Notes: generated by a model from the letters alone, not told the origin. Counted from the first letter of the stretch, positions 3,374-58,079 are shown. The stretch is 64,000 bases of DNA from Candidatus Levyibacteriota bacterium (GCA_016199085.1 JACQHJ010000002.1:31000-94999); one strand, 5' to 3'. Translations and numbers: made by a program.

Positions 3374-4186
3374 TTATTTTATAAATAAATTACCGTTTAA
3401 TTCAAGAAATCTTTTTGATTTTGTTTGGAGATCTGCGTTTACTATTCCATCGTATCCCAATTCAATTTGAGTAAGAAGTGCTTCTGCAATAGCCCCATCT
3501 TCCCTATGTGCTCTTTGAGCCTTAGTTGTTTGATCAACTATATACTCGACCTGTCTGACCCCTATGTCTTCTATGTCACCCGTGATTGTCTGAACATGTT
3601 CCATATTGTGCCTTATTCCTTCTACTTGTCCTGTGATCTCCAAAGCCATACCCACAAGGCCTAGTTTATATACGGAATCATCCCGTGATACTATGATTGC
3701 AAATCCGAGTCCGTCTTCGGATAATGCACCAGGTGCATACATAGGAGATTTCTCTTTGGGTAGAGAGTCCACTGGAGTTACAATAACTGTATTACTTTCA
3801 CCGTATAGCTGCAAGAAATGCACAGCGCTTTTAAAGACGGGATTTTGGCTTTCTGCCATAAATTGTAAAGTTTTATCAATTCTGTCTTTGGTTTCTCTTA
3901 CCAATTCCCTGTGATTTTGGATTTGTCCTTCTGGTAGGGGATCAAAAGCGTACTTTGCAAGCGTAGCTTGTTCATTTTCAATTTCCAAAGGACTGAAATG
4001 AATGGTTCTTGCCGCCTCTGCTATTAAACCGGGAGTTAATGTAGCCTGTACGGTGTCTCTTCTTGCCTGAGCTTCTGCATCATTATATTTTACCGCAGCA
4101 ACTCCAACGGTTGTTGCAACAATCGCTGTTGCTGCAAGCGCTTCCGCAAATTGTCTTCCTCTGTTTACTCCCTCTCTTCTTGGCAT
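3374..4186 (-). CDS. Hypothetical protein, compositionally atypical (Arg/Gln/Glu/Thr-rich)
   Basis: 270-aa ORF convergent with rseP, stop 2 nt from the rseP stop; no recognisable motif; higher local GC gives antisense shadow ORFs 3425..3664 and 3606..3914. Confidence 0.45.
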   Translation of the reverse strand: MPRREGVNRGRQFAEALAATAIVATTVGVAAVKYNDAEAQARRDTVQATLTPGLIAEAARTIHFSPLEIENEQATLAKYAFDPLPEGQIQNHRELVRETKDRIDKTLQFMAESQNPVFKSAVHFLQLYGESNTVIVTPVDSLPKEKSPMYAPGALSEDGLGFAIIVSRDDSVYKLGLVGMALEITGQVEGIRHNMEHVQTITGDIEDIGVRQVEYIVDQTTKAQRAHREDGAIAEALLTQIELGYDGIVNADLQTKSKRFLELNGNLFIK

Positions 4187-4265
4187 ATTTTGTTAATAGT
4201 TTTTTAAACGAAAATAGATTATATAAGAATACCGCATTTTAGTCAAACACAAGTGTGCTAAAATT

Positions 4266-4940
4266 ATGAAAATGAAGATAATAAAAGTAAAAGATGCTGG
4301 TGAAGGAGTAGATAAGGCGAAAAGTTTTATCTACAAATACTCCAATAGTCAAACCGCTTTATTTCTCTCAGGCGGTTTGACCCCAAAAGCCCTGTATCAA
4401 ACTCTTTCCACTGATAAAAAACTAAAGGCCGGAGCAGTTGCGGTTGTAGATGAAAGATTTGGGTTACCATTCCATGACAACTCAAATGAAAAAATGATCA
4501 AAGACTCACATCTTTTTGAATATCTTAAATCGACAAACACTTTGGTATTTACGGTTTTAAACGGAAAGGATATTGATAATACTACGAAAGATTATGAAAA
4601 AATCATCTCAAGGTTGTTTAAATCTTACAAACAAAAAATTGCTATCCTGGGAATTGGGGAGGACGGACATACGGCGGGTATTCCTAAAGGATACTACAAT
4701 TCAAATGAGTTGGTAATAAAAATAGATGATTTTCCCTCGGAGTTTAGGAAGCGTATTACTTTAACCTTTAAAGCACTAGAACAGATGGATAGGTTAATCG
4801 TTTTGGTTTTTGGTGAAAATAAAAAAAAGGTTTTAAATGAAATGTTTAAGAAGGGTTTACTTGAAGAACTTCCTGCAAGATTTTATTTACAGAAGGAAAT
4901 TTCTCAAAAGACTATTTTAATTACAGACCAGGCAGTTTAA
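4266..4940 (+). CDS. pgl: 6-phosphogluconolactonase
   Basis: Glucosamine-6-P isomerase/6PGL family motif ILGIGEDGHTAG; lies next to zwf and gnd. Confidence 0.7.
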   Translation: MKMKIIKVKDAGEGVDKAKSFIYKYSNSQTALFLSGGLTPKALYQTLSTDKKLKAGAVAVVDERFGLPFHDNSNEKMIKDSHLFEYLKSTNTLVFTVLNGKDIDNTTKDYEKIISRLFKSYKQKIAILGIGEDGHTAGIPKGYYNSNELVIKIDDFPSEFRKRITLTFKALEQMDRLIVLVFGENKKKVLNEMFKKGLLEELPARFYLQKEISQKTILITDQAV

Positions 4941-5413
4941 GTATCTCTTTGAATTTTTCTACTTAACCTTTGAATTCCTTTTTTGGACATTTTCGATCTC
5001 CAGAGCACTATTGCTCCCTCTCCTTCATAGGGGTTTGGAATTGCGGTTTGAATAGCCATTACATTAAATCCTTCTTGTGGACTATAGACTAATTCATACG
5101 ACCTATATAAATCATGTGATTGTCCATTAACCAGACTGACACCTTCTTTTCTATCAACACCTCCTAAAAGATATGTTTTGTCAACTCTATCAAGGTAAAG
5201 CCTGGGGCGTCTGTAGTAGAAAGCATGAAAAAATAATGGATTTGAGTCAGCAGTTCTAACGCTAACGCTTGCGGGGTTTCTAGGATCTTGTTGATAAATT
5301 CTATTTCTTTCAACATAAGAAACCAAATCGACCATGAAAAGAGCTATTGTAGGACTTGGTGGTCTAAAGCTTTCAGGAATTAATATACTCTGTTCTATTT
5401 CTGTTTTTAGCAT
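4937..5413 (-). CDS. Hypothetical protein, compositionally atypical
   Basis: 158-aa ORF overlapping the pgl stop by 4 nt on the opposite strand; Arg/Pro/Tyr-rich; no known motif. Confidence 0.4.
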   Translation of the reverse strand: MLKTEIEQSILIPESFRPPSPTIALFMVDLVSYVERNRIYQQDPRNPASVSVRTADSNPLFFHAFYYRRPRLYLDRVDKTYLLGGVDRKEGVSLVNGQSHDLYRSYELVYSPQEGFNVMAIQTAIPNPYEGEGAIVLWRSKMSKKGIQRLSRKIQRDT

Positions 5414-5467
5414 CTGGATATTATACCGAAAAATTGCCAGAAGTTTATAAATTCAAGGAGAAGTATT

Positions 5468-5983
5468 TTACCGTCTAGCTGGGGGAAGACTTCTGAAAAT
5501 TGTTCTATCAAATAATCCTCTTAATTTTCCCAAAGCGCTTAATCCAGTTGAAACGGGAATGACTGCGTTGGAATCTCGTGGTTCTATAAGAGTAAGCTCA
5601 GCTCTGGCAATTGGTCCAGTGCCATCTCGAAGATATCTTTCCTGTAGCCTGTGACTTGCGGCATGGATTTCTCCTAAAGTGGCAGAAGATACTCCTATCT
5701 CCGTAGGTAGTGTACCATCTGGGTACACCAGGCCTACTTGTCTGATACTTACTCTCTCGATGATGATGGTAGTTCCATTGGTTCGTGTTATGTCGATCTC
5801 AAGTGTTTCGCCGTCTTCTGGTGGCGCAATGCCCTCTGGCCCTATTAACCTAGATGTTAAATCGTCTGCAAAAGCTCTCAATTGTTCATCTTCATGTAAT
5901 TGTTCAGGGGTCAACCTCCATCTACCTGCAATGTCTTGTCTTCTTTCAGTTATGTCTCCTGGCATAGTTGCGAAAATATACAC
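5468..5983 (-). CDS. Hypothetical protein, compositionally atypical
   Basis: 171-aa ORF; Arg/Glu/Thr/Leu-rich; its antisense frame is open (the 5679..6020 extension of the zwf frame), but that extension is Ser/Cys-rich and non-protein-like. Confidence 0.4.
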   Translation of the reverse strand: MYIFATMPGDITERRQDIAGRWRLTPEQLHEDEQLRAFADDLTSRLIGPEGIAPPEDGETLEIDITRTNGTTIIIERVSIRQVGLVYPDGTLPTEIGVSSATLGEIHAASHRLQERYLRDGTGPIARAELTLIEPRDSNAVIPVSTGLSALGKLRGLFDRTIFRSLPPARR

Positions 5984-6020
5984 CTTGATATTTACTTTGT
6001 CAACACCTGACTATATAATC

Positions 6021-7445: not shown

Positions 7446-8356
7446 AAATAGGTTTTATTGGTCTTGGGAGAATGGGTAACAGAATGGTAGGGAAATTGAC
7501 TTTAGAAGGACACAATGTAGTTGTCTGGAACAGAACTTTGCAGGTTGCAAAAGATCTCCAAAAAGAAATAAATTCGATTCAGGTTTCTTCAAGTATTAAA
7601 GAGCTTATAGATTCACTCCCAAGGCCTAAAGTTATTTGGATTATGGTTTCTCACCAAGGTGTAGACGAAGTTTTAGATGAGGTTAAAAAATATTCAAAAA
7701 GTGGCGATGTGGTCGTAGATGGAGGCAATTCACATTTCCAAGATACTGAAAAAAGATTTAACGAGTTTGAAAAATTAGGAATTCACTTTTTGGGTATTGG
7801 AACAAGCGGTGGAATAGTTGCAACTAAAAACGGTTATCCTTTTATGGTCGGGGGAAGCAAAAAGGGATATGACATTATTAAGCCCATTTTGGATTCTTTA
7901 GCAAAACCACACGGAGGTCATCAGTATTTTGGAAAAGGCGGAGCAGGGCATTTTGTCAAAATGGTTCATAACGGAATTGAATACGGTATTATGCAGTCTC
8001 TTGGTGAAGGGTTCGAGGTCTTAGAAAAATCAAAATATAATTTCAATCTTTTAGATGTTGCAAAGCTTTGGCAAAAAGGCACTTTGGTTTCCGGTTTTAT
8101 GTTAGATAGGGCAAAAGACGCTTTGGAGAAAAATTCAAAGTTAGACGATATTGTCGGTGTTATTGATGCCTCAGGCGAAGCCTTATGGACAATAGAGGCA
8201 GCTAAAAAAGAAAATGTTAAAGTTGAAATAATTGAAAGATCGCTGGATTACAGGAAAAGATCAAAAACCGATAAGAAGATTCAGCAAAGCTTTACTGCCA
8301 GAATGGTTGCCGCTTTAAGAAGAGAATTCGGAGGACACGAAGTAAAGAAGCGTTAA
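7430..8356 (+). CDS. gnd: 6-phosphogluconate dehydrogenase, decarboxylating (short about 300-aa form)
   Basis: IGFIGLGRMGNRM NAD(P)-binding motif, GGNSHFQDT, GTSGG, GAGHFVKMVHNGIEYG; overlaps the zwf stop. Confidence 0.8.
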   Translation: MAFDMKIGFIGLGRMGNRMVGKLTLEGHNVVVWNRTLQVAKDLQKEINSIQVSSSIKELIDSLPRPKVIWIMVSHQGVDEVLDEVKKYSKSGDVVVDGGNSHFQDTEKRFNEFEKLGIHFLGIGTSGGIVATKNGYPFMVGGSKKGYDIIKPILDSLAKPHGGHQYFGKGGAGHFVKMVHNGIEYGIMQSLGEGFEVLEKSKYNFNLLDVAKLWQKGTLVSGFMLDRAKDALEKNSKLDDIVGVIDASGEALWTIEAAKKENVKVEIIERSLDYRKRSKTDKKIQQSFTARMVAALRREFGGHEVKKR

Positions 8357-9153
8357 ATGTTGTAGCCTTCTATATGTTCGGACCCCGGATGGTAAATACC
8401 TGAAGTTGTTCTTCCCGGACTCTCTCTGATTGTTTCCGTTAATTGAATAAGCTTTCCTGCAGGAACCTCGAGTCCAAACATTTGTAATGGTCCAATTGAT
8501 GCCCCTCCCTTAAAATGTCTTTGCCAAAGTTGATATTCCTGTACCCACACAGAGCCTAATTCAAATTTTCGCGCAGCAGCTTCCATTCTCTCTAATCTTT
8601 GGGTAAAAGCTACGGGTACATTGAGCTGGGCGTGAACAACTCTAAATAAAGCATAAGGAAGAAAGTAAGTTGGTTCTTGTTCCCATTGTCTTATACGCGT
8701 TGCTACCTTTTCGCCCTTAGGTGGATCAAAAAGGTCATCTTCTAAGGAATAGGGGGTTTGAATGAGTCCAGCTTTATTCTTTCCTCTCAAAATTATCTTT
8801 GTTCCCTCATGGTTTACTTCAATCCCGCTTCCCGAAAGAGGGAGTCTTAGAACTGGCATACCTTTTATCCCGAGGTCTTCGAGATTTCCCATAGCTGCTA
8901 CAGTATCTAGATATATCTGATCGCGTGTTATTCCCAAAAATGCTGCAAGCTTAAGTATTCGCTCTCCGTAAATATAAAACATTTCCTCTTCTATTTTTGC
9001 AAGTCGATTAGGGGGAAGTCCCAGTTCGGGACCGTTTCTTATCCTTTCTCTCCTTGTCGCATATTGTCGGATATATTTTAAATATTCTTTTCGTTTTCTT
9101 AAGGCAAAAAGCTCGAAAGCTGCCGGAGCTCCTCTTTGATCTTCAAGTGTCAA
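8353..9153 (-). CDS. Hypothetical protein, compositionally atypical
   Basis: 266-aa ORF overlapping the gnd stop by 4 nt, opposite strand; Arg/Glu/Leu/Gln-rich; no known motif. Confidence 0.4.
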   Translation of the reverse strand: MTLEDQRGAPAAFELFALRKRKEYLKYIRQYATRRERIRNGPELGLPPNRLAKIEEEMFYIYGERILKLAAFLGITRDQIYLDTVAAMGNLEDLGIKGMPVLRLPLSGSGIEVNHEGTKIILRGKNKAGLIQTPYSLEDDLFDPPKGEKVATRIRQWEQEPTYFLPYALFRVVHAQLNVPVAFTQRLERMEAAARKFELGSVWVQEYQLWQRHFKGGASIGPLQMFGLEVPAGKLIQLTETIRESPGRTTSGIYHPGSEHIEGYNI

Positions 9154-9575: not shown

Positions 9576-9578
9576 ACA

Positions 9579-10490: not shown

Positions 10491-11720
10491 ATGAGGTACT
10501 CGGGTCTTTTTCCAAAAACTTTAAAGACAGCTCCAAGCGGGGCAGAGTCTCTAAATCACAAATTATTAGTTAGAGCAGGATACATTGATCAGTTAATGGC
10601 AGGCTCTTTTACGTTACTTCCCTTAGGTTTTAGGGTTGTAGAAAAGATTAAAGAAATCATAAGGGAAGAATTAAATAAAACTGGAGCCCAAGAGCTTTTA
10701 ATGCCCCTACTTCATCCAAGAGATATCTGGGATCAAAGCGGAAGATGGTCCAAGCCTGAAGTAAGAAAGATAATGTATCAGTTCAAGGATATTCATGATA
10801 AAGAGTTCGGACTCTCTTTTACCCATGAAGAAATAGTTATGGACCTTCTTTCTAAGTTTATACAAAGCTATAAGGATTTACCCGTAAAGGTTTATCATTT
10901 TTCAACCAAATTCAGAAACGAACCAAGAGCCAAGTCTGGGATTTTAAGAGGCAGGGAATTTATGATGAAAGATTTATACAGCGCCCATACCACAGAAGAG
11001 GATATGTATTTGTATTACAACCAGATAAAAGATATCTATCCAAAGATTTTTAAAAGAATTGGACTTGAGGTAAAAGTCGTTGAGGCTAGTGGGGGCGTAT
11101 TTACGCCTTCCCACAGCCACGAATTCCAGGTTTTATGTAGAGTTGGAGAAGATACGATCTTTTACTGTGATAAATGTGATTTTGCCCAAAATAAAGAAAT
11201 TTTTCAAGGACAAGAGGGGAGTAAATGCCCAAACTGCGATGGAAAAATACTTACCGCAAAATCCATTGAAGTTGGCAATATCTTTCCTTTGGGTACGGAT
11301 TTTTCAATAAATCAGAAAGTTTTCTATACAGATGCCAATGGCAAACAAAACCCAATCTGGTTTGCAAGCTACGGCATCGGTCCAACAAGGGTTTTGGGTA
11401 CACTGGCTGAGGTTTTTAATGATGAAAATGGTCTTATTTTTCCCAAATCGGTCGCCCCGTTTGATGTCCACTTAATTAGTCTATCTAAAACCGAAGAAGC
11501 CAAAAAAATCGAGGAAGAACTTGAAAAAAACGGATTTGAAGTTCTATATGATGATAGGGAAGTAACGGCGGGAGAGAAATTTGCCACGGCAGATTTGATT
11601 GGAATTCCGGTAAGACTGGTTGTTAGCGAGAAAACCGGCGGGAAAATTGAATTTAAACAAAGAAATAAAAAGGAAAGCCAGCTTTTAACTTTAGAAGAAG
11701 TTTTGGAGAAATTAAAATAA
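10491..11720 (+). CDS. proS: Prolyl-tRNA synthetase (short form)
   Basis: N-terminus MRYSGLFPKTLKTAPSGAESLNHKLLVRAGYIDQLMAGSFTLLPLG aligns with the ProRS N-terminus, class II motifs FRNEPR, GILRGREFMMKD; start moved to ATG 10491 from the track's 10356. Confidence 0.8.
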   Translation: MRYSGLFPKTLKTAPSGAESLNHKLLVRAGYIDQLMAGSFTLLPLGFRVVEKIKEIIREELNKTGAQELLMPLLHPRDIWDQSGRWSKPEVRKIMYQFKDIHDKEFGLSFTHEEIVMDLLSKFIQSYKDLPVKVYHFSTKFRNEPRAKSGILRGREFMMKDLYSAHTTEEDMYLYYNQIKDIYPKIFKRIGLEVKVVEASGGVFTPSHSHEFQVLCRVGEDTIFYCDKCDFAQNKEIFQGQEGSKCPNCDGKILTAKSIEVGNIFPLGTDFSINQKVFYTDANGKQNPIWFASYGIGPTRVLGTLAEVFNDENGLIFPKSVAPFDVHLISLSKTEEAKKIEEELEKNGFEVLYDDREVTAGEKFATADLIGIPVRLVVSEKTGGKIEFKQRNKKESQLLTLEEVLEKLK

Positions 11721-12149
11721 CCCAAAGACCTTAGCCCAGATTACGATATAGGCTCCGAAGAATATCAACCCTCCGATTATAAATAAAAGCGGTAACATAT
11801 TTAATTTTTTCTTTTGTGTATTGGTAACCGAGGTAGAAGGAGATTGGGCAAAAAGACCGGAAGGGGGTTCAACGGTTGTAGTAGCAAAGCTTTGACCTAT
11901 TGGCGCAGCTTTATTAAGCGCAGGATCTGGTGCTTGGAGATTTTGACTAGGCACCTGCGATGTTTGCATAAGAGGAGTATTCGGTTGCGGAGTTGGGTTT
12001 TCCTTGGGAGGTTCACCGGCTGGTTGCGGAGCATTAGGTGCAGGTTGAGGTTGCGGGTCAGCACTTTTAGGAGTAAAATTACTTCCCATTACTCTTTCAT
12101 ATGCTTCTCTTAATTTCGGATCCAAATCATTAACGTTTTTAGGATTCAT
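11712..12149 (-). CDS. Pro/Gln-rich tail-anchored membrane protein, compositionally atypical
   Basis: 145 aa; long low-complexity PQPQPAPNAPQPAGEPPKENPTPQP stretch and a single C-terminal TM helix LPLLFIIGGLIFFGAYIVIWA; overlaps the proS 3' end by 9 nt on the opposite strand. Confidence 0.4.
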   Translation of the reverse strand: MNPKNVNDLDPKLREAYERVMGSNFTPKSADPQPQPAPNAPQPAGEPPKENPTPQPNTPLMQTSQVPSQNLQAPDPALNKAAPIGQSFATTTVEPPSGLFAQSPSTSVTNTQKKKLNMLPLLFIIGGLIFFGAYIVIWAKVFGLF

Positions 12150-12208: not shown

Positions 12209-12463
12209 TTAGGCGCCTGCAGGTAGGGGTCTTCCTCTGGCGGTTAATTCCTGTCTTCTTAAAAATTTTTCAACTTGTCCTAATGCTTGAGTTGTATCCT
12301 TTAATTTAGGACATGTTGACGGAGTTTGTTCCCAAACCGTCTGGGGTTGGACACCGGGACATATCCCTAAAGCATAAAAATCACAAGTTGTAAGACCGGT
12401 TGCGGATTCACCTCTTGCAGCAGCGGCTCTTGCCGCTAATTTTAATAATTCACATTCAACCAT
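12209..12463 (-). CDS. Hypothetical small protein, compositionally atypical (Ala/Arg-rich, 4 Cys)
   Basis: 84-aa ORF between the Pro-rich ORF and the VanX-like gene; no motif. Confidence 0.3.
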   Translation of the reverse strand: MVECELLKLAARAAAARGESATGLTTCDFYALGICPGVQPQTVWEQTPSTCPKLKDTTQALGQVEKFLRRQELTARGRPLPAGA

Positions 12464-12539: not shown

Positions 12540-13691
12540 TTAATTTGCTTGGGGTGAAATTTCTTCCGAATTGGGCAGAGAGGTTTGAGCATAATTACCA
12601 TCTCTTCGTAATGATTTTTCTACAGCTTGTCTGGCTTTCCCCAATGGATCCTTATTTCGTCCCAATGCTCGGTCTAAGAAGCTTCTTCTATGTCGAGGTC
12701 GCCAACCGTCTTGGATTCGCAATACTCCTAGCCTATGTTGTTGTCTAATTTTTTCATGTTCTAGGTTTTCGGCAGATAATGCTATCCTTCCAAAATTTGC
12801 TGTTTCAAGTCCTGCTGTTTTTGCCCCCATCTGGGATTTGGGAGAATTAAAATGCCACCATTCATCTGGATATGCTTGCAGGCCAACGTCTTTCATTATA
12901 TGATACAAAAGTCTTCTATTTCTTAAAGCCTCATTTTCCTCATCCGTAAGTGGTCTTTCTTGCGCTAATTGTTCAAAGTATGTTGAGGAAGCTTTTTCGC
13001 CGCCGTGATCAAATGGGGTCCCAAAATAAAGGTAGGCCCCATGGCTTTTAATAGTTGTCATTTCCATTTCTAGGTCATATCTATGCAAGTCTGTGTCTGG
13101 TAAATCTTTGATTTCCTCCTCAATCTCACTTATTCTTTGTGCTTGCTCATCTGGGACTCTTATGATTGCAAGATCAACCGCTCCGCCCGTATTGTGGGGA
13201 GAAGGTTTTGCTGGGTCGCTAGAGGGTAAAGAAACAAATTTTTGTGCCTCGGTCGTTAATTGTTCTTCTGTCCAATCAGGATGTAATTTTTGTAATTCTG
13301 AATAGTATTTTTCATATAAAGCTCCTTGTATTTGTAATGTTCTATATGCGTCATGGATTATTAGGAAATGGTTTCTTGGGAGGAGTGCTTGAGCTTTTTC
13401 CAGAGCCTCGGCAACACTTGGTCTTACAAACATAGTTGTCAAAGATCCAGGAAGTCTTTGCGGATCTACTAAGTTCTGGTCTTGCCTGTAGGGAGAGTTA
13501 TCTCTTTCTCCAGAGTAAATTGAATCAGTGAAGATTCTAGGATGGTTTGAAAAAGCACCTAATGGGACAAGGTAAGCATCTTCTCCTAGCTGTTCGGGTG
13601 CGATGGGGATTTCTTTCCAGCCAGCGACGCTTGGTATATTAAGAGGTATTGGAATATCTCTTCTATCAATTGAGGTTGATTTTTCAGGCAT
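12540..13691 (-). CDS. VanX/DdpX-type D-Ala-D-Ala dipeptidase homolog (LAS zinc metallopeptidase) with N- and C-terminal extensions
   Basis: SPHNTGGAVDLAII (SxHxxGxAxD zinc-ligand motif) and DEWWHF (ExxH catalytic motif) as in VanX; 383 aa versus about 200 aa for VanX; 7 nt downstream of ddl on the same strand; atypical composition. Confidence 0.5.
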   Translation of the reverse strand: MPEKSTSIDRRDIPIPLNIPSVAGWKEIPIAPEQLGEDAYLVPLGAFSNHPRIFTDSIYSGERDNSPYRQDQNLVDPQRLPGSLTTMFVRPSVAEALEKAQALLPRNHFLIIHDAYRTLQIQGALYEKYYSELQKLHPDWTEEQLTTEAQKFVSLPSSDPAKPSPHNTGGAVDLAIIRVPDEQAQRISEIEEEIKDLPDTDLHRYDLEMEMTTIKSHGAYLYFGTPFDHGGEKASSTYFEQLAQERPLTDEENEALRNRRLLYHIMKDVGLQAYPDEWWHFNSPKSQMGAKTAGLETANFGRIALSAENLEHEKIRQQHRLGVLRIQDGWRPRHRRSFLDRALGRNKDPLGKARQAVEKSLRRDGNYAQTSLPNSEEISPQAN

Positions 13692-19789: not shown

Positions 19790-20326
19790 ATGGATAAGGT
19801 AAGTCCAATAGGAGAATTATTAGAAAAAGGACAAAGTAATCTAACACAAACAGTAACTGACGTGACAAATTCGGTAAAATCGCAGGTTATCGGCGATCAG
19901 AAAGATCCTTTATCTCAAGCGCCTCGAATTTCCTTAGGAGATGGTCCAGTTCCGGTTGAAGATCCACAAATTTCGGCTCAAAGGACAAAAGCCGTTGTGA
20001 GTGATTTTTATGCCCCTTCAAGCGAAACTGTACAGGCTCCACCCCAAACAAACGAAGGAACTGATGAACAAAAGTTGACAAAAGTAAGACAGGAACTTTT
20101 GACAGAACAGGAAAAACACCAAGCACTGCATGAAGAGGTTTATTACAACCCTTTATTTGCCTATGAACAAAGAAAAGGTCAACAAGAAGAAAGACCGGCT
20201 GAAACGGCCCAAAGACAGCAAATGGAAGACCTACAAAAGAAACACGAACAAAAAGCCAAGACAGATGCGGATATTGCAACGCAGAGAGCCCAGCATCATG
20301 TCGAAATAAGGGCATCGGCGGGATAA
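19790..20326 (+). CDS. Hypothetical low-complexity protein, compositionally atypical (Gln/Glu/Thr/Pro-rich)
   Basis: 178-aa ORF starting 2 nt after the recR stop and ending 8 nt before cysS; no SD; no motif. Confidence 0.35.
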   Translation: MDKVSPIGELLEKGQSNLTQTVTDVTNSVKSQVIGDQKDPLSQAPRISLGDGPVPVEDPQISAQRTKAVVSDFYAPSSETVQAPPQTNEGTDEQKLTKVRQELLTEQEKHQALHEEVYYNPLFAYEQRKGQQEERPAETAQRQQMEDLQKKHEQKAKTDADIATQRAQHHVEIRASAG

Positions 20327-46341: not shown

Positions 46342-47340
46342 ATGGCAGAAGTAAAGCAAGTCTCAGACAATATAGAAGCCAAAATAACTGCAAGAAAAGA
46401 AAGAATAACCCAAGAAGTAGATAAGATTGATACGCTTTTTGAAGTAGAACATCTTCCTGGATTTGAGGATAGAGTGGGATATTTTCCAATTCTAGACAAT
46501 TTGGCAGGAAGGCCTGTCTTAGCCAGGTTTTCATATGGTAAAAACGCCCCAAATATGTCTGCAAAATTTTTTGATAATAATAAAGGCGAAAGCGAAGTAA
46601 CAAATGAGAGAAATAGACGTGAATTCTTAGAACAATTGGGTTTTCCAAACTACCCATTTGTTTTACAAACGGTCGGAGCATTTGAAGGAGCAGAGCCACA
46701 GATAGAAGAAGTAAATGTGGATACGTTGAAAGATAAAACAAAAGTCGTTGGAAATATAGTTTTTACAAGAGATCCCGAACTTACTCTGGACATTATTCCC
46801 GCAGATTGTCCAACGGGTGTTTTGTATTGCAAAGATAGTCAAGGTAATCCGATTGCAGCTATCCTTCACGGAGGAGCGGATGCTCTTAATGCAGGAATGA
46901 TAAGGCAAGGTTTATGGGTCTTGCGAGATGAATACGGAGTTGATTTAAGTCAAGCCGTGCTTGGTATAGCTCCAGGAGTTTTAGCAAAAAACTATTTTAT
47001 AACTAATGAGCCTGAACGAAGAGGAAACGGCATTATTGAAAGAAACTGGGGAGATTATATAACCGAGAAGACAACAGATGATCCTTCTGAAAAAAGATAC
47101 GTGGATTTAACAAGCGCTTTTGTGATGCAGGCTCTGGAAGCAGGACTTAATACTGATAATATTCAGACATACGGTGGAGTAGACACTTATCAGGACGCTT
47201 CTGACGAAAAAGCATATTCAAGAAGGTATTATAATGAACATGATAAAAAAAGACCTGGAGGCCAAATTTTAGCAGTTCGCCTAAATCCAGATGCCGTAAA
47301 TAAAAGCTCAGGGCTATATAGTTTGCCCCAAGCAGCTTGA
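46342..47340 (+). CDS. YfiH/PgeF-like (DUF152, laccase-domain purine nucleoside phosphorylase / peptidoglycan editing factor) homolog, compositionally atypical
   Basis: PADCPTGVLYC (YfiH TADCLPV), AAILHGGADAL (AAHAGWRG), C-terminal AYSRRYYNE...GGQILAVRL (FFSYRRD...GRMASFIWL); 332 aa versus about 245 aa. Confidence 0.45.
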   Translation: MAEVKQVSDNIEAKITARKERITQEVDKIDTLFEVEHLPGFEDRVGYFPILDNLAGRPVLARFSYGKNAPNMSAKFFDNNKGESEVTNERNRREFLEQLGFPNYPFVLQTVGAFEGAEPQIEEVNVDTLKDKTKVVGNIVFTRDPELTLDIIPADCPTGVLYCKDSQGNPIAAILHGGADALNAGMIRQGLWVLRDEYGVDLSQAVLGIAPGVLAKNYFITNEPERRGNGIIERNWGDYITEKTTDDPSEKRYVDLTSAFVMQALEAGLNTDNIQTYGGVDTYQDASDEKAYSRRYYNEHDKKRPGGQILAVRLNPDAVNKSSGLYSLPQAA

Positions 47341-49170: not shown

Positions 49171-50450
49171 AAAGAACAAAAATACTACAAATACTTTTAG
49201 GCTTATTTATAGCTTTTATTTTTGGTTACTATTTTGGCGTCAATAAAGTAACGGTTGACTGGAAAGCGTATAAGCCAAATATCAATATCGTCAGCAAAGA
49301 GCCGCCAAGTGGGATTACAAACATCAACTTCACTCCTTTTTGGACTGTCTGGGAAAAACTTATGGTCAGCTACTATGATAAATCCAAACTTGACCAGCAG
49401 AAAATGCTAAACGGCGCAATTTCTGGAATGGTATCTAGCATAGGCGATCCTTTCACTTTGTATCTTCCACCTATACAAAATAATGATTTCAAAGAAGGTC
49501 TTGCCGGACAGTTCTCAGGCATTGGAGCAGAGCTTGGGACTAAAGATCAGGATATAATTGTCATTTCCCCCTTAGATGGAAGTCCCGCCGAGAAAGCAGG
49601 CATAAAAGCAGGGGATACTATTGTATCTGTTGACGGCCAGAGCACTTCAGGCTGGAACATCTCCCAGGCTGTTGAAAAAATAAGGGGTCCAAAGGGAACA
49701 CAAGTAGCTCTAGGGATTGTTAGAAAAGACGCGACAAAGAAAATTGACTTAAAAATAACCAGAGACATCATCAACGTTAAAAGTGTTGCTATGGAGGTAA
49801 GAACTGCCAATTGTAATGACAAGGAATGTAAGATTACTCCCAAAGCCGAAACTTGTAAGGGGCAAGGATGTACCAGTTTTGTCTATATCAGGCTTTCCCA
49901 GTTTGGCGATAATACCAATCAGGAATGGCTTGGTCTTGTGGGAAGTATTTCCTCCAAGGTTAAAAATGACAAAAATATCAAGGGAATAGTGTTTGATCTT
50001 CGTAACAACCCAGGAGGATATTTAACAGATGCAGCCTTTATTGCTTCTGAATTTTTGGATAAAGGAAAAGCAGTAGTATCCCAGGATAACGGAATAACGG
50101 ATAGATCAACGATGTATGCAACAAGAGAAGGTTTGTTTACGAAAGACAAAATAATTGTCCTAATCAACAAAGGAAGCGCTTCTGCCTCTGAAATAGTCGC
50201 AGGGGCTCTAAGAGACAATAAGAGAGCAACTCTGGTCGGTGAGACCTCATTTGGTAAAGGAACTATTCAGACGGCTGAAGATCTAGGTGACGGAGCAGGG
50301 CTTCATGTAACCATAGCAAAATGGCTTACTCCTCTTGGAACCTGGGTTAACGGCAAAGGGTTGACCCCAGACGTTGAAGTACAATTAGATGCAAAAGATC
50401 CCTCAAGGGATACCCAACTTGAAAAAGGTATACAAGAACTGCTAGAATAG
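49167..50450 (+). CDS. ctpA: Carboxyl-terminal processing protease (S41 family)
   Basis: N-terminal TM, PDZ segment, GIVFDLRNNPGGYL and catalytic Ser/Lys region (NKGSASASEIVAGAL...K). Confidence 0.8.
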   Translation: MKRTKILQILLGLFIAFIFGYYFGVNKVTVDWKAYKPNINIVSKEPPSGITNINFTPFWTVWEKLMVSYYDKSKLDQQKMLNGAISGMVSSIGDPFTLYLPPIQNNDFKEGLAGQFSGIGAELGTKDQDIIVISPLDGSPAEKAGIKAGDTIVSVDGQSTSGWNISQAVEKIRGPKGTQVALGIVRKDATKKIDLKITRDIINVKSVAMEVRTANCNDKECKITPKAETCKGQGCTSFVYIRLSQFGDNTNQEWLGLVGSISSKVKNDKNIKGIVFDLRNNPGGYLTDAAFIASEFLDKGKAVVSQDNGITDRSTMYATREGLFTKDKIIVLINKGSASASEIVAGALRDNKRATLVGETSFGKGTIQTAEDLGDGAGLHVTIAKWLTPLGTWVNGKGLTPDVEVQLDAKDPSRDTQLEKGIQELLE

Positions 50451-50504
50451 GGCCTCAATAAAAATAAAACGCAATTTAGTTCTATTTTTAGAAAGGAAAG
50501 AGAT

Positions 50505-51986
50505 ATGCCAACACCAGAGGTAAACAGGGGATCAAACTCAAGGGGACGCTCAACTGAACATGGTAGAACTGAGCTGGTAAACCAAATGTCTTTGCAGTAT
50601 AAAGTCAGACTGCTTTCAGGACAATTTGATAGCGGAATTCCCTTGGATCGAGTAGCAGCAAGAGACGGAATAAGGCGAAATAATCCAACAGAGACATACC
50701 AACGAATACATGAGAAATGGGGAGAAACAAGGCAAGCTGAATGGGCGGGAGATAGAAGAAGAGATTTCTCCGAAAGACTTACTGCTTGGGCAGGCAGCAG
50801 GGCAAGAGACTTAAAAGATCTTATAGATTCAACCAGTCCTGATGATAGCAATTTTTTCGATGGCCTGGCAACAATTAAATTTACAGGAGATCCTCAAAGT
50901 ACAACCCAAGAAGATATTGCAAGTTATTTTGCTGGAACCTTTTTCCCTGAGTTTGCGGTAAACTCTGACAGAAACGTAGAAGCTGATAAAAGCGTTGGCC
51001 ATTTAGTAGATACTTTTTATCAAGTTGCAGGACCTGATGCAGATGGAAAAATTACCCAAGCAGGAGCAGATAAGGTAATGGATCAAGTCCAGGCTCTTTA
51101 TCGGGTATTAAGGCCAATTTTTAAAGAAGAAAATTATCTAAAATTTGAGGATGTTTTACAGGCACGTTTACATGCAGGATCCGGAAGGCTTAATGAGGCT
51201 AATATAAAAAACGGAGATCCGTCGCAAAAAATGAAACAAGACCTTGGATATTTTGCACCTCAAACACTGTGGGAGGAAAGACCAAGGCCGACAGTTGCGG
51301 TAGGACGGGCTGTCAGACTTGCTGAAGCAGCCGCCGTCGCAGAGCCAACTGGACCTGCAGAAGTCGCCGCAGCGGCAGAGGTTGAGGAAGGTATTGTAGC
51401 AGTAGAGACAAACCCAGAAAATTTATTTGTAGATATAATTAAGGGTGTTGATCAAGCAAATGATGAAGCTAGTAGCGAGACAACATTAGATCTTCCGGCA
51501 GATTCTTTGCTTTCAGGCCAGGGACGTTTGCTTTCAAGGCCTGAGGGATTTATTCAGATAAAAGTAGTTGATTCAGGTGCGCTTGAGGTCGATGAAGACA
51601 ATAACATTGTAAGAACAAGACAAGCCTTACTGGATATTACCAAAGAAGGAGTGACAAGAGGGGGTATTAGGCTTGACGTTTTATTACAACAAGAAGCAGA
51701 GGGTGCACGGATACGAGGTGAGAATATTGAGGAAGATTCAACCCATCCTGACTGGAACAGGCAATTAGTTGAGGAAGTTTTTGCTACGGTTATGCCCTCA
51801 TTTAGACAAAGACTTAATCAAGACATTGTTCACATTGATCCACACTGGAGAGCAGCCAGAGTTGATCTTAACAGAGGAAGATTCAGGATAGGGTTTATTA
51901 AAGAAGATGTGGCACAAGTTCCTCCCTTGCCTTTAGAGAATGACGTTTTTCCAGGACCGGATGATGTCCCAGCAGGAACCTCTTAA
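50505..51986 (+). CDS. Hypothetical large protein, compositionally atypical, with Ala/Glu-rich linker
   Basis: 493-aa ORF between ctpA and htrA; low-complexity AVGRAVRLAEAAAVAEPTGPAEVAAAAEVEEG; weak SD GGAAAGAG; no motif. Confidence 0.4.
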   Translation: MPTPEVNRGSNSRGRSTEHGRTELVNQMSLQYKVRLLSGQFDSGIPLDRVAARDGIRRNNPTETYQRIHEKWGETRQAEWAGDRRRDFSERLTAWAGSRARDLKDLIDSTSPDDSNFFDGLATIKFTGDPQSTTQEDIASYFAGTFFPEFAVNSDRNVEADKSVGHLVDTFYQVAGPDADGKITQAGADKVMDQVQALYRVLRPIFKEENYLKFEDVLQARLHAGSGRLNEANIKNGDPSQKMKQDLGYFAPQTLWEERPRPTVAVGRAVRLAEAAAVAEPTGPAEVAAAAEVEEGIVAVETNPENLFVDIIKGVDQANDEASSETTLDLPADSLLSGQGRLLSRPEGFIQIKVVDSGALEVDEDNNIVRTRQALLDITKEGVTRGGIRLDVLLQQEAEGARIRGENIEEDSTHPDWNRQLVEEVFATVMPSFRQRLNQDIVHIDPHWRAARVDLNRGRFRIGFIKEDVAQVPPLPLENDVFPGPDDVPAGTS

Positions 51987-56554: not shown

Positions 56555-57457
56555 TTATGAGAGATTAACTTCGTTTTCCTCAAGTCCTTTCATAGCAGAA
56601 GTCACCTTATCCAAGTCTCCTTCCATAATAACTTCGAGATTTGAAAAATTTTTGTTAATCCTGTGATCCGTTAGTCTGTCCTGGGGAAAGTTATATGTTC
56701 TAATCTTTTCGCTTCTCATACCTCTTCCAACCTGGGTTGCTTTAAGCCCTGCTATTTCTCCATGTTTCCTTTCAACTTCTTGTTCCCAAAGTTTGGCACG
56801 TAGCATTTCCAAAGCGATTTCTCTGTTTTGAGCCTGGAATCTTTGCGTCTGGCAGGTAACTATAATGCCTGTAGGTTTATGTTTTAGTCTCACTGCTGTT
56901 GATACCTTATTAACATTTTGCCCTCCGTGTCCACCACTTCTGAAAGCCTCAAATTCAACGTCGTCCGGGTTTACATGTAGGTCAATATCTTCAAGCTCGG
57001 GAAGAACTGAAACTGTGGCTGTAGAGGTATGGACTCTGCCTCTTTTTTCGGTTGTTGGAATTCTTTGAACCCTATGGACGCCAGCCTCAAATTTAAAGAG
57101 TTCAAAAGCGCCTTTGCCCGATACTTTAATAATATCGTCGTCTAAAGCCTCCACCTTAAACCCTTTGGTTTGGGAATATCTTGAATACATTCTCAAAAGT
57201 TCCTGACCCCAGTTGGTTGCTTCATCTCCGCCTGCAGCACCACTTGCCTGGATAATAACGTTTCTTTCATTTAAATCTTCACTAGAAGTTTCTTTACTGT
57301 TTGCCTCAAAGGTAGCCAAAATGTCCTGCTTCTGTTTTTCAAGACTTTCTATCTCTTCCTGGGCAAGTATTGACAATGAAGGATCATTTAAAAGAATCTT
57401 TGTTTCTTCAATTTTTCTGTCAATTTGGGCAATTTGTACTTGTCTGTAATCTTCCAT
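56555..57457 (-). CDS. prfA: Peptide chain release factor 1 (short, 300 aa)
   Basis: GGQ motif [14 protein letters not shown] (PxT, RF1-type) tripeptide in [14 protein letters not shown]; no frameshift site. Confidence 0.75.
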
Positions 57458-57472
57458 TGTCAGAAGGTTTAT

Positions 57473-57763
57473 CTATTGAACTTCTAAAAGCATTTCTCGA
57501 AGAGTCTTGGGGGAATTGTCTTTTTTAGCTTCTTTTTTTGCCTTCTTGGTTACATGAAGACTTGCTACTTCCTGTTTTTTCTGGAATTTCTGAATTCTTG
57601 AAGCACTGTCAACAAATCTTTGCTCACCTGTATAGAAGGGGTGGCATTTGCTACAGAGTTCCACATGAATAACTTCAACAGTTGAACCTGTCGTAAACTT
57701 ATTTCCGCATGCACAAATTACCTGCGCGTTCTCAAAATATTGTGGGTGAACTGCAGCTTTCAT
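57473..57763 (-). CDS. rpmE: 50S ribosomal protein L31
   Basis: MKAAVHPQY...CACGN...[10 protein letters not shown] zinc-ribbon L31 signature. Confidence 0.8.
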
Positions 57764-57840
57764 TAAATACAATTATACCTTAATTTGAGGGTATTTACAA
57801 GACAATTATTATAAAACCCACTCGGGTTACTATCCTATAG

Positions 57841-57868
57841 TTGACATATGTGGCAGATTTGATATAAT
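57841..57868 (+). promoter_or_regulatory. Consensus sigma-70-type promoter TTGACA-16 nt-TATAAT
   Basis: TTGACA at 57841-57846, 16-nt spacer, TATAAT at 57863-57868; perfect hexamers in an intergenic region. Confidence 0.55.
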
Positions 57869-57875
57869 CTTTTTT

Positions 57876-58079
57876 ATGAAATTAACAGCTGAGACAAGTG
57901 CAGGCAGAAGCATTCCTCATCCGGCAATAGTTGCCAATGAGACCTATTTAATAAGATTAAATAGTTTATCGCATAGAACACCAGTAAACCCTGCATTAGA
58001 AGTAGAGCAGATGGTTCGTTCTGCTAGGTCAGGAGGACCGGTAGGCCCAACCACGGACGTATTTAAATACACAAGATAA
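57876..58079 (+). CDS. Small ORF (67 aa), compositionally atypical, apparently leaderless; alternatively a small RNA
   Basis: ATG 7 nt after the -10 hexamer, so the predicted TSS coincides with the start codon; no SD; Arg/Pro/Thr-rich. Confidence 0.3.
   Translation: MKLTAETSAGRSIPHPAIVANETYLIRLNSLSHRTPVNPALEVEQMVRSARSGGPVGPTTDVFKYTR

What the first reader, a model, noticed from the sequence alone, without database searches (positions are those of the whole stretch)
3374..58079. About 20 ORFs with a distinct amino-acid/GC signature interleaved with core housekeeping operons
The host genes in this window encode Lys/Ile/Asn-rich proteins in roughly 36-38% GC DNA. Scattered among them are ORFs encoding Arg/Gln/Glu/Asp/Thr/Pro/Ala-rich, Lys-poor proteins in visibly GC-richer DNA: 3374..4186, 4937..5413, 5468..5983, 8353..9153, 11712..12149, 12209..12463, 12540..13691, 19790..20326, 24975..25343, 25345..25770, 25809..26180, 34342..35151, 38079..38285, 38667..39233, 40526..41059, 41913..42881, 44067..45479, 46342..47340, 50505..51986, 57876..58079. 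Long antisense shadow ORFs appear almost only over them (3425..3664, 13093..13305, 44662..44865, 50303..50851), which fits the higher GC. They use CGA/CGG/CGC arginine codons that are rare in neighbouring genes, mostly lack Shine-Dalgarno sequences, and are packed within 0-15 nt of, or overlapping, neighbouring stops: 2 nt from the rseP stop; overlapping the pgl, gnd and proS ends; 2 nt after the recR stop. Most have no recognisable fold. Four have recognisable catalytic motifs (VanX-like, KAS, YfiH-like, GNAT-like). This could be a lineage-specific protein class, old horizontally acquired cargo wedged between operons, or something undescribed. It is the dominant unexplained pattern in the window.
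Basis: partly seen in the sequence, partly recalled or inferred. Interest (0 to 1): 0.75.

Follow-up and report, generated by a model that had tools for sequence, protein, structure and literature searches.

The report
Arg-rich accessory genes in a Levybacterium
The twenty odd-looking ORFs are real but mostly uncharacterised accessory genes of a Candidatus Levybacteria (CPR) genome, gained, lost or swapped between conserved operons; they differ from the core genes in amino-acid make-up, not in codon usage, so this is an instructive case of an ordinary flexible genome.

Summary
The window comes from a Candidatus Levybacteria MAG (locus tags HY344_).

**What is real**
- All 20 ORFs are annotated CDSs.
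- As a set they are Arg/Pro/Ala-rich and Lys/Ile-poor: K/(K+R) is 0.40 against 0.71 in the other genes.
- 17 of 20 lack a Pfam family, against 7 of 60 other genes.

**What is wrong in the finding**
- The extra GC sits only in codon positions 1 and 2. GC3 is lower than in the other genes.
- Synonymous codon usage is native: AGA is 63% of Arg codons against 65%.
- Shine-Dalgarno motifs are rare in all genes of the window. Many genes are leaderless, with a TATAAT box just upstream of the start codon.
- Tight packing and antisense ORFs are not specific to the set.
- The composition distribution is a heavy tail, not two clean modes.

**What the ORFs are**
- They sit at junctions of conserved synteny. 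They are absent from more distant Levybacteria and variably present in close relatives.
- They are under purifying selection (dN/dS 0.09-0.31).
- Some have been replaced by very divergent alleles: 31% identity between flanks that are 95% identical.
- Members of these families keep the same composition offset in other AT-rich CPR genomes.
- The KAS-like family is still gaining AT-type residues (28 gains, 7 losses).

**Verdict:** flexible-genome genes. This is not a chimeric assembly, not recent import from GC-rich donors, and not one new protein class.

The parts
3374..4186 (-). 270-aa hypothetical protein HY344_00940 with an N-terminal membrane anchor; K/(K+R) 0.43
   Evidence: Exact PGAP CDS. 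No Pfam, PHROG or PDB match. Present at 98.5% aa identity in L169 and L170, inside a recombination tract; dN/dS 0.09-0.13.
4937..5413 (-). 158-aa hypothetical protein HY344_00950; K/(K+R) 0.32; leaderless-type TATAAT starting at -12
   Evidence: Ortholog in L169 at 88% identity; dN/dS 0.13.
5468..5965 (-).
   Evidence: The exact CDS is the form that starts at 5965. Ortholog in L169 at only 58% identity while flanking genes are 83-94%; dN/dS 0.31.
8353..9153 (-). 266-aa hypothetical protein HY344_00970 (TTG start, has a Shine-Dalgarno motif); K/(K+R) 0.39
   Evidence: Absent from the close relative L169, where gnd and the tRNA-binding gene are adjacent. No PDB match.
11712..12149 (-). 145-aa Pro/Gln/Thr-rich protein with a C-terminal transmembrane helix, HY344_00995; not Lys-poor (K/(K+R) 0.82)
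   Evidence: Homologs in place in L083 (58%), and found in L108 (40%) and L086 (29%). Has its own TTGACA-17-TATAAT promoter.
12209..12463 (-). 84-aa hypothetical protein HY344_01000
   Evidence: Exact CDS. Absent from L083, which has the ProRS - 11712 homolog - ddl region contiguous.
12540..13691 (-). 383-aa VanX/VanY-like D-Ala-D-Ala peptidase (Peptidase_M15), 7 nt downstream of ddl; K/(K+R) 0.37 vs 0.85 for ddl
   Evidence: Pfam PF01427 at 1.2e-15. PGAP name is D-alanyl-D-alanine carboxypeptidase family protein. Absent from L083. TATAAT starting at -12.
19790..20326 (+). 178-aa hydrophilic, probably disordered protein, 1 nt after recR; HY344_01055
   Evidence: GRAVY -1.03, TOP-IDP 0.217. Ortholog in L083 at 57% identity vs 84% for RecR.
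24975..25343 (+). 122-aa hypothetical protein HY344_01085; K/(K+R) 0.25; TTGACT-17-TATAAT promoter 9 nt from the ATG
   Evidence: No Pfam or PHROG match.
25345..25770 (-). 141-aa basic hypothetical protein HY344_01090
   Evidence: No Pfam or PHROG match.
25809..26180 (-). 123-aa very Arg-rich (16% Arg, pI 11.3) hypothetical protein HY344_01095
   Evidence: No Pfam or PHROG match.
34342..35151 (-). 269-aa hypothetical protein HY344_01150 with an Arg-rich N-terminus; K/(K+R) 0.33
   Evidence: Homolog at 48% identity in L164 and L165. No Pfam, PHROG, PDB or viral-contig match.
38079..38285 (+). 68-aa hypothetical protein HY344_01165; TTGACA-17-TATCAT promoter 7 nt from the ATG
38667..39233 (+). 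188-aa acidic hypothetical protein HY344_01175; leaderless-type TATAAT starting at -13
   Evidence: The region is not present in L171.
40526..41059 (-).
   Evidence: No Pfam or PDB match. Ortholog at 90% identity in L171, dN/dS 0.18. No homolog found in L163-L165.
41913..42881 (+). 322-aa member of a widespread uncharacterised family; confidently folded; no solved-structure match
44067..45479 (+). 470-aa divergent beta-ketoacyl synthase (KAS I/II-like) with no acpP or fab neighbours
   Evidence: Pfam PF00109/PF02801. Small clade, P0005-P0011, 84% down to 34% identity. Both catalytic His conserved. Only 33% identical to the copy next to YchF in L171. FYMINK gains 28 vs losses 7.
46342..47340 (+). 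332-aa YfiH/Cu-oxidase_4 (laccase-domain) protein
   Evidence: Pfam PF02578 at 5.6e-12. PGAP name is 'laccase domain-containing protein'. Orthologs at 56-58% identity in L163 and L001.
50505..51986 (+). 493-aa orphan between the S41 (CtpB-like) and HtrA protease genes; a locus of allelic replacement
   Evidence: Only 3 proteins found among 5.8e9. Same position in L001, L002 and L163. L001 vs L163: 31% aa identity between flanks that are 95% identical, with sharp boundaries. AF2 pLDDT 43.6 with a 3-sequence alignment.
57876..58079 (+). 67-aa hypothetical protein HY344_01290 behind a perfect TTGACA-17-TATAAT promoter, 7 nt from the ATG
   Evidence: A member at >=90% identity occurs in a separate Logan sample.

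Best explanation
The flagged ORFs are genuine protein-coding genes of the flexible (accessory) genome of a Candidatus Levybacteria lineage. They belong to several unrelated, mostly uncharacterised families.

Shown:
- They occupy junctions between conserved operons.
- Most have their own sigma-70-type promoter, often placed so that the mRNA is leaderless.
- They are under purifying selection.
- They are gained, lost, or replaced by very divergent alleles through recombination among related populations.
- Their higher GC comes only from amino-acid composition: more Gly/Ala/Arg/Pro-type residues and fewer Lys/Ile/Asn-type residues. Synonymous codon usage matches the host's.
- Members of these families carry the same offset in other AT-rich CPR genomes.

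Inferred:
- These families joined the AT-rich lineage later than the vertically inherited core, or circulate among lineages. Their synonymous sites have equilibrated, but their proteins have not yet drifted to the Lys/Ile/Asn-rich composition of the core.
- Purifying selection on the proteins slows that drift.
For: - Real genes. All 20 are exact PGAP CDSs. dN/dS is 0.09-0.31 against close relatives. ORF lengths are kept among orthologs.
- Native expression signals. TANAAT starts at -20..-9 in 8/20 flagged and 13/58 other genes, against 2.8% by chance. Several flagged ORFs have consensus TTGACA-17-TATAAT.
- Native synonymous usage.
- Junction location and patchiness:
  - YchF->rpsF and S41->HtrA are adjacent in L003, L004 and L006, but hold flagged ORFs in the window, L001 and L163.
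  - RseP->ProRS is adjacent in most relatives.
  - 8353 is absent in L169; 12209 and 12540 are absent in L083; 41913 is absent in L171.
- Allelic replacement. In L001 vs L163 the orphan is 31% identical in protein between flanks at 94-98% nucleotide identity, with sharp edges. KAS-like is 33% identical in L171 next to an 87%-identical YchF.
- Family-level offset in other AT-rich genomes. In L166, L167, L174 and L175 the family member has K/(K+R) 0.28-0.46, mostly well below its neighbours; L166 neighbours are 0.60-0.91.
- The trend across 87 related loci. ORFs found in <=2 other loci have K/(K+R)<0.5 in 27-28% of cases, against 3-4% for ORFs conserved in 10 or more loci (p=4e-14).
- Non-equilibrium. 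KAS-like shows 28 FYMINK gains vs 7 losses (p=0.0005); controls show 38 vs 39.
Against: - The directional-substitution signal comes from one family. The 50505 and YfiH-like families together give 11 gains vs 9 losses. Parsimony polarisation can exaggerate mutation-driven gains.
- No donor lineage is identified for any ORF.
- 50505 is 28-55% identical among relatives yet still Arg-rich. This is awkward for simple lag and fits selection on composition better.
- In relatives only about half of the low-K/(K+R) ORFs lack Pfam hits, so the link to 'unknown' families is weaker outside this window.
- Only 64 kb of the genome was available.
Confidence: 0.6

Rival explanations
1. The composition is adaptive and kept at equilibrium by selection. 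Under this view the ORFs share a role that favours Arg over Lys and few Ile/Asn, for example proteins at the interface with a host cell or with phages. That role would also explain the hypervariability and the allele replacement.
For: - Family members keep the offset in five different AT-rich genomes.
- 50505 alleles as low as 28-31% identical keep their length, GC1 0.57-0.59 and GC2 0.43-0.45.
- Replacement with sharp boundaries is typical of loci under diversifying selection.
- The neutral expectation from 4-fold sites is K/(K+R) about 0.68 and GC1 about 0.27, so the observed composition is far from drift (my calculation).
Against: - The set has no shared domain, signal peptide or motif. Only 3374 and 11712 have a predicted membrane segment.
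- The families are functionally unrelated.
- KAS-like is demonstrably not at equilibrium.
- In absolute terms the flagged composition is close to that of an average proteome (my comparison of the values with typical proteome averages, from memory), so no special Lys avoidance is needed.
Confidence: 0.2
2. The orphan members arose de novo, or by divergence beyond recognition, within the Levybacteria lineage. Under this view their composition reflects young, more disordered proteins.
For: - 50505 has only 3 relatives among 5.8e9 proteins.
- The set is more hydrophilic and more disorder-prone: GRAVY -0.52 vs -0.26, TOP-IDP p=0.0009.
- Bacterial orphans are reported to be more disordered and to use optimal codons less often (PMC11293555).
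Against: - De novo ORFs from 37% GC DNA should be AT-type, not GC1 0.52-0.59.
- 41913 looked like an orphan to Pfam, yet it has 219 homologous clusters and a confident globular fold.
- ORFs of 270-490 aa are too long for recent de novo origin in AT-rich DNA.
Confidence: 0.08
3. The ORFs are recent horizontal transfers from GC-richer donors or from phages (moron-like insertions).
For: - They are single-gene units with their own promoters, inserted between operons.
- They are enriched on the minus strand, 11/19 vs 12/52, p=0.009.
- Some are indel-variable among close relatives.
Against: - GC3 and codon usage are native even for the indel-variable ORFs.
- No PHROG hit for 17 flagged ORFs.
- No convincing viral-contig relative for three flagged ORFs tested; the only match was 45 residues at 35% identity.
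- No viral fold match for 41913.
- No integrase, transposase or flanking repeats.
Confidence: 0.04
4. The pattern is an artefact: a chimeric assembly, bin contamination, or spurious ORF calls.
For: None found.
Against: - The same junctions appear in independent assemblies from NCBI, JGI, ENA and Logan.
- dN/dS is below 1.
- ORFs of up to 493 codons cannot arise by chance in roughly 40% GC DNA.
Confidence: 0.01

Closest known systems
Taxonomically restricted / orphan genes of bacterial pangenomes (e.g. Vakirlis & Kupczok 2024, PMC11293555)
   Same: - Mostly no known family.
- Purifying selection.
- Less 'optimal' synonymous usage (lower GC3).
- More hydrophilic and more disorder-prone.
- GC3 tracks the host.
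- Rare or variable among relatives.
   Different: - Overall GC is higher than in conserved genes because of amino-acid composition. The survey reports near-equal GC for orphan and conserved genes.
- Several ORFs are long (270-490 aa).
- Some belong to large but undescribed families rather than being true orphans.
Replacement-type flexible genomic islands or islets (divergent or non-homologous genes at one locus between conserved flanks; from my own knowledge of the marine and enterobacterial pangenome literature)
   Same: - The locus between S41 and HtrA, and the KAS-like locus next to YchF, carry alleles of 28-33% identity. Flanks are 95% identical for the S41-HtrA locus (L001 vs L163) and 87% for YchF (window vs L171). 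The S41-HtrA locus has sharp boundaries.
- An M15_4 peptidase in L163 is replaced by an Amidase_2-like gene in the window.
   Different: - These are single genes, not multi-gene glycosylation or O-antigen clusters.
- There is no evidence that the products are surface-exposed.
Amelioration of horizontally acquired genes (Lawrence & Ochman 1997 model; cited in PMC11293555)
   Same: - Third positions match the host, while first and second positions remain atypical.
- Directional gain of host-type residues in KAS-like.
   Different: - No donor is known.
- The signal is shown for one family only.
- Fast-diverging orphans keep the offset.
Phage 'morons' (autonomous transcription units inserted between genes)
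   Same: - Single ORFs with their own consensus promoter, placed between conserved genes.
- Often in the opposite orientation to their neighbours.
   Different: - The setting is a cellular chromosome, not a prophage.
- No phage homologs.

Membership tests
Orphan / taxonomically restricted genes | No detectable homolog outside a narrow clade | tested here: inconclusive
   Met for 50505, with 3 proteins in 5.8e9. Not met for 41913, with 219 clusters, nor for the KAS-, VanX- and YfiH-like ORFs. The other 14 were not searched successfully: the concatenated query failed.
Orphan / taxonomically restricted genes | Evidence of being real genes (purifying selection, conserved ORF) | tested here: met
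   dN/dS is 0.09-0.31 for 3374, 4937, 5468 and 40526. ORF length is conserved for 50505, KAS-like and YfiH-like.
Horizontally acquired genes under amelioration | Atypical synonymous-site composition or codon usage | tested here: not met
   GC3 0.278 vs 0.302. AGA is 63% vs 65% of Arg codons. GC at 4-fold third positions is 0.27 vs 0.28.
Horizontally acquired genes under amelioration | Atypical first- and second-position (amino-acid) composition with patchy phyletic distribution | tested here: met
   GC1 0.52 vs 0.45 and GC2 0.43 vs 0.32. Absent from the syntenic loci L003, L004 and L006 and from most ProRS loci.
Horizontally acquired genes under amelioration | Directional substitution toward host composition | tested here: inconclusive
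   KAS-like shows 28 FYMINK gains vs 7 losses (p=0.0005). 50505 and YfiH-like together show 11 vs 9. Controls show 38 vs 39.
Horizontally acquired genes under amelioration | Identifiable donor lineage by phylogeny | not tested
The nearest non-clade relatives of KAS-like are canonical FabF proteins at 31-40% identity from diverse bacteria.
Replacement flexible genomic islets | Same locus between conserved flanks holds highly divergent or non-homologous genes in close relatives, with sharp boundaries | tested here: met
   S41-orphan-HtrA locus, L001 vs L163: 94-98% nucleotide identity in S41 and 87-98% in HtrA, about 45-60% across the orphan, with edges at the gene ends. KAS-like is 33% identical in L171. 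M15_4 vs Amidase_2-like.
Mobile-element cargo (integron cassettes, IS/transposons, prophage morons) | Integrase or transposase, attC-like or terminal repeats, or phage-family homologs nearby | tested here: not met
   No such Pfam domains in the window. Only chance-level repeats. 0 PHROG hits. No convincing viral-contig relative.
Beta-ketoacyl-ACP synthase I/II (for 44067-45479) | Thiolase-fold KAS N- and C-domains with the Cys-His-His catalytic triad | tested here: met
   PF00109 and PF02801. Both His align with canonical FabF. The Cys in the 'QACASGQ' context was read directly from the sequence.
Beta-ketoacyl-ACP synthase I/II (for 44067-45479) | Genomic association with acpP or other fab genes | tested here: not met
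   Neighbours are YchF and peptidoglycan hydrolases. The canonical FabF P0015 sits in fabG-acpP-fabF-rnc.
VanX/VanY M15 D-Ala-D-Ala peptidase (for 12540-13691) | Peptidase_M15 domain above the Pfam threshold | tested here: met
   PF01427 scores 58.2 bits against a cutoff of 27, and the ORF lies directly downstream of ddl. Metal-ligand residues were not checked.
   No Pfam hit at E<=0.01. No PDB sequence hit.

The most novel reading that the evidence does not exclude
A subset of these ORFs (the 50505 family, the KAS-like gene, and other hyper-divergent ORFs such as 5468, 11712, 19790 and 34342) may form a strain-variable layer of Lys-poor proteins. These CPR episymbionts would use them in interactions with hosts or phages. 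In this reading, frequency-dependent selection drives the allele replacement at fixed loci, and the Arg-over-Lys composition is itself adaptive rather than a historical residue.
Probability: 0.1. Interest if true: 0.65.

Novelty: new member of a known kind. Interest (0 to 1): 0.35.

Why it matters
- **For annotation.** A GC or amino-acid 'foreign' signal in an AT-rich CPR genome can mark the flexible gene complement even when codon usage looks native. Tests based on GC3 or codon usage would miss these genes.
- **For biology.** The result points to a few concrete loci for studying how ultra-small, host-dependent bacteria diversify. Examples are the S41-HtrA orphan locus and the KAS-like gene beside YchF. 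At these loci close relatives carry alleles of about 30% identity.
- **For structure and function.** The result exposes a large uncharacterised protein family (41913-42881) with a confident predicted fold and no match among solved structures.
- **What it does not show.** There is no new kind of genetic element here.

Tried and rejected
1. A genome-contig scan with the KAS-like ORF found nothing. The second scan, with YchF, gave the loci used for synteny.
2. An exact lookup of 50505 in the contig index failed, although the protein is in the collection.
3. A concatenate of 14 orphans (2426 aa) sent to the search for homologous proteins returned nothing, not even self hits. This wasted the last search. 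It says nothing about whether homologs exist.
4. PHROGs gave 0 hits for 17 flagged and 3 other Pfam-less ORFs. Phage origin is therefore not supported.
5. Viral-contig scans for 12540, 41913 and 34342 gave only one marginal 45-residue match.
6. Rfam and tRNA scans found nothing in the window.
7. The AF2 model of 50505 with a 3-sequence alignment had pLDDT 43.6, too low for a fold search.
8. PDB sequence searches for 40526, 8353, 3374 and 34342, and for the profiles A1 and A4, found nothing significant.
9. The afdb50 fold library was not available.
10. A repeat search found no flanking repeat family.
11. Two explanations for the composition were considered and rejected:
    - GC-biased gene conversion. 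GC3 is lower in the set, not higher.
    - Neutral drift. The expectation from 4-fold sites is K/(K+R) about 0.68.
12. The literature searches found no prior description of this composition pattern in CPR.

Full report
**Source and gene inventory.** The window is from a Candidatus Levybacteria (CPR, Microgenomates) metagenome-assembled genome with locus tags HY344_. Window ORF 50505-51986 is 100% identical to 'hypothetical protein HY344_01255', which lies on a 204,621-bp contig.
- All 20 flagged ORFs are exact PGAP CDSs.
- One start needs correcting: 5468..5983 is really 5468..5965.
- The window has 36.7% GC, no tRNA gene and no Rfam match.
- Pfam identifies 53 of the 60 other ORFs as ordinary genes. 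They include EF-Ts, RRF, RseP, Pgl, Zwf, Gnd, ProRS, Ddl, RecR, CysRS, transketolase, YchF, S6-SSB-S18, an S41 protease, HtrA, MurB, a release factor, L31 and HisRS.

**Checking the composition claim.** The set differs strongly from the rest.

| Measure | Flagged | Other genes |
|---|---|---|
| GC | 0.409 | 0.356 |
| GC1 | 0.52 | 0.45 |
| GC2 | 0.43 | 0.32 |
| GC3 | 0.278 | 0.302 |
| K/(K+R) | 0.40 | 0.71 |

- GC3 is lower in the set, not higher.
- Synonymous usage is essentially native. AGA is 63% vs 65% of Arg codons, AGR 80% vs 88%, and GC at 4-fold third positions 0.27 vs 0.28.
- The 'GC-richer DNA' is therefore entirely an amino-acid effect: R x2.0, P x1.7, A x1.5, Q x1.3, K x0.47, I x0.67, C x0.36.
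- This is the classical GARP versus FYMINK axis. In absolute terms the flagged proteins look like an average mid-GC proteome (my comparison with typical values, from memory). It is the core proteins that are unusually Lys- and Ile-rich.
- PCA puts this axis first (29% of variance) and separates the set. However, a two-component mixture is no better than one by BIC, and six unflagged genes fall on the flagged side.
- The ORFs were chosen by composition, so the separation is partly circular. The independent support is the Pfam contrast: 3/20 vs 53/60, p=2.8e-9.

**Other claims in the finding.**
- Shine-Dalgarno motifs are rare everywhere: 10% vs 14% of genes.
- Instead, a TANAAT hexamer starts 9-20 nt upstream of the start codon in 8/20 flagged and 13/58 other genes, against 2.8% expected by chance.
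- Several flagged ORFs have consensus TTGACA-17-TATAAT promoters ending 7-9 nt from the ATG. They therefore look like autonomous, leaderless transcription units using the host's own signals.
- Gaps beside flagged ORFs are not tighter than elsewhere: median 36 vs 7 nt.
- Antisense ORFs of at least 60 aa are equally dense over both sets: 1.27 vs 1.23 per kb.
- Flagged ORFs are enriched on the minus strand: 11/19 vs 12/52, p=0.009.

**Comparative genomics.** More distant Levybacteria (L003, L004, L006) keep the order ychF-rpsF-ssb-rpsR-(244 aa)-S41-HtrA.
- They lack the KAS-like, YfiH-like and 493-aa ORFs. The flanking genes are only 36-540 bp apart.
- Most relatives have Tsf-RRF-RseP followed directly by ProRS. 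The whole window block 3374-10112 is therefore an insertion relative to them. That block holds flagged ORFs together with pgl-zwf-gnd.
- Closer relatives carry many of the ORFs in place:
  - L001 and L002 carry 50505.
  - L163-L165 carry KAS-like (84%), YfiH-like (58%), the orphan, and a 34342 homolog (48%).
  - L083 carries 11712 (58%) and 19790 (57%).
  - L169 and L170 carry 3374, 4937 and 5468.
  - L171 carries 40526 at 90%.
- Content still varies among close relatives:
  - 8353 is absent in L169.
  - 12209 and 12540 are absent in L083.
  - 41913 and the adjacent Phd/ParE pair are absent in L171.
  - Unflagged small genes (NUDIX, HD, MazG, a histidine kinase/response regulator pair, an IMPase) also come and go.
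- These independent assemblies exclude a chimeric assembly.

**Selection and divergence.** Against L169, L170 and L171, dN/dS for flagged genes is 0.09-0.31, compared with 0.02-0.15 for neighbours. The flagged ORFs are therefore constrained coding sequences, somewhat less constrained than the core.
- They usually diverge faster than their flanks: 57-58% vs 71-95% in L083, and 58% vs 83-94% for 5468 in L169.
- Rate alone does not explain composition. 9579-10112 is Pfam-less, 78.5% identical to its L169 ortholog, and still has K/(K+R) 0.81.
- A tract at 2551-4350 is 95-100% identical to L169, against about 85% elsewhere. This shows recent homologous recombination.
- Two loci show allelic replacement:
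  - L001 and L163 have S41 proteins 95% identical and flanks 87-98% identical in DNA. The orphan between them is 31% identical in protein and about 45-60% in DNA, with edges at the gene ends.
  - In L171, YchF is 87% identical to the window's, but the adjacent KAS-like gene is only 33% identical.
- At the neighbouring position L163 has a 478-aa M15_4 peptidase. The window has an Amidase_2-like gene on the other strand.

**What the ORFs are.**
- Three are divergent members of known enzyme families:
  - a VanX/VanY-type peptidase directly downstream of ddl;
  - a KAS I/II-like enzyme, with both catalytic His residues aligned with canonical FabF and the Cys read directly from the sequence, but without acpP or fab neighbours;
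  - a YfiH/Cu-oxidase_4 protein.
- 41913-42881 looked like an orphan but has 219 homologous representative clusters. Its AF2 model is very confident (pLDDT 94.3, pTM 0.87). It has no convincing match in the PDB or among viral models.
- 50505 has only three relatives in 5.8 billion proteins, and its model is poor.
- None of the 17 flagged ORFs scanned hits PHROGs.
- No convincing viral-contig relative, integrase or flanking repeat was found.

**Why the composition differs.**
- Recent import from GC-rich donors is excluded by the native GC3, even in the indel-variable ORFs.
- Neutral drift is excluded. Base frequencies at 4-fold sites predict K/(K+R) near 0.68 and GC1 near 0.27 (my calculation).
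- The offset is a property of the families. KAS-like members in L166 and L167, and 41913-family members in L174 and L175, sit in genomes of 34-39% GC. They are mostly Arg-rich relative to their neighbours.
- Across 87 related loci, low K/(K+R) is about eight-fold enriched among ORFs confined to at most two other loci, compared with ORFs conserved in ten or more. About half of such ORFs still have Pfam families, such as Tmk, ThyX and TatD.
- A parsimony test of substitution direction gave these counts:

| Gene set | FYMINK gains | FYMINK losses | p |
|---|---|---|---|
| Flagged families, all | 39 | 16 | 0.003 |
| KAS-like only | 28 | 7 | 0.0005 |
| 50505 + YfiH-like | 11 | 9 | 0.82 |
| Core controls | 38 | 39 | 1.0 |

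- The signal is carried by KAS-like. I therefore favour incomplete amino-acid amelioration of later-arriving or circulating families, slowed by purifying selection. Selection on composition remains the main rival, especially for the fast-diverging orphans.

**Comparison with what is known, and verdict.** The pattern fits bacterial orphan and accessory genes as surveyed in PMC11293555: host-like GC3, less optimal codons, more disorder, purifying selection. It also fits replacement-type flexible islets.
- The unusual points are the higher GC1/GC2 with lower GC3, and single-gene allele replacement at fixed loci in a CPR genome.
- The feature is real but is a member of a known kind. Interest is moderate to low.

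Noticed in passing
window-wide; e.g. 57840-57878, 24937-24977, 42915-42933, 52002-52024, 29300-30116 (minus strand): Shine-Dalgarno motifs are rare, present in about 13% of genes. 27% of genes have a TANAAT box starting 9-20 nt upstream of the start codon, against 2.8% by chance. Many of these also have TTGACA 17 nt further upstream. This suggests widespread leaderless mRNAs in this Levybacterium.
   Followed up: partly
L001:3500-5030 vs L163:10699-12198 (window 50505-51986): The locus between the S41 protease and HtrA carries alleles only 28-31% identical in protein. The flanks are 95% identical (S41 protein) in the L001 vs L163 comparison, and the boundaries are sharp. This is cassette-like allelic replacement of a 493-499-aa orphan.
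   Followed up: yes
window 41913-42881: This Pfam-less ORF belongs to a large uncharacterised family: 219 representative clusters, 93 of them at E<1e-30. The AF2 model is very confident (pLDDT 94.3). It has no PDB or viral fold match, apart from weak winged-helix-like and small beta-domain fragment hits.
   Followed up: partly
window 44067-45479; L171:3-1334: A KAS I/II-like enzyme with both catalytic His residues conserved sits in a CPR genome without acpP or fab neighbours. In the close relative L171 the gene next to YchF is a different type, 33% identical to the window's copy and 41% identical to P0011.
   Followed up: partly
window 2551-4350 vs L169: A tract of about 1.8 kb is 95-100% identical to MAG GCA_964507975.1, against a background of about 85%. 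It covers the 3' part of rseP, ORF 3374-4186 and the start of pgl. This indicates recent homologous recombination.
   Followed up: yes
window 45570-46300 (minus strand): This ORF was not flagged, and it was dropped by my greedy gene set. It looks like an N-acetylmuramoyl-L-alanine amidase (Amidase_2-type motifs, read by eye). It occupies the position where L163-L165 have a 478-482-aa M15_4 peptidase on the other strand. No Pfam scan was run on it.
   Followed up: partly
window 3374-10112: The oxidative pentose-phosphate genes pgl-zwf-gnd lie in a block inserted between RseP and ProRS. Most related Microgenomates loci have those two genes adjacent. L084 has a pgl homolog at this junction, and the close relative L169 carries pgl, zwf and gnd.
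   Followed up: partly
window 5679-7445 and 10356-11720: The longest-ORF starts are probably over-extended. zwf aligns as a 472-aa protein, with its start near 6027 (L169). ProRS homologs align only from residue 42-46 onward. The apparent 305-nt overlap between 5468-5983 and zwf disappears with the corrected starts.
   Followed up: partly
window 41101-41661: A Phd/YefM-ParE toxin-antitoxin pair lies beside ORF 41913-42881. Both are missing from L171, where the 40526 homolog abuts YchF. L163-L165 have a different pair (MazE/PIN) at this junction.
   Followed up: partly
L005, L006, L009, L013, L018, L028: Several GTDB MAGs titled 'uncultured Gammaproteobacteria bacterium' have YchF 52-62% identical to this Levybacterium. 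L006 also shares the Levybacteria-type ychF-rpsF-ssb-rpsR-S41-HtrA synteny. Their record titles are probably wrong.
   Followed up: no
window 61013-61867 (minus strand): This unflagged ORF has flagged-like composition (K/(K+R) 0.47) and no Pfam hit. PGAP names it a phosphoribosyltransferase. This shows that the boundary of the class is fuzzy.
   Followed up: partly
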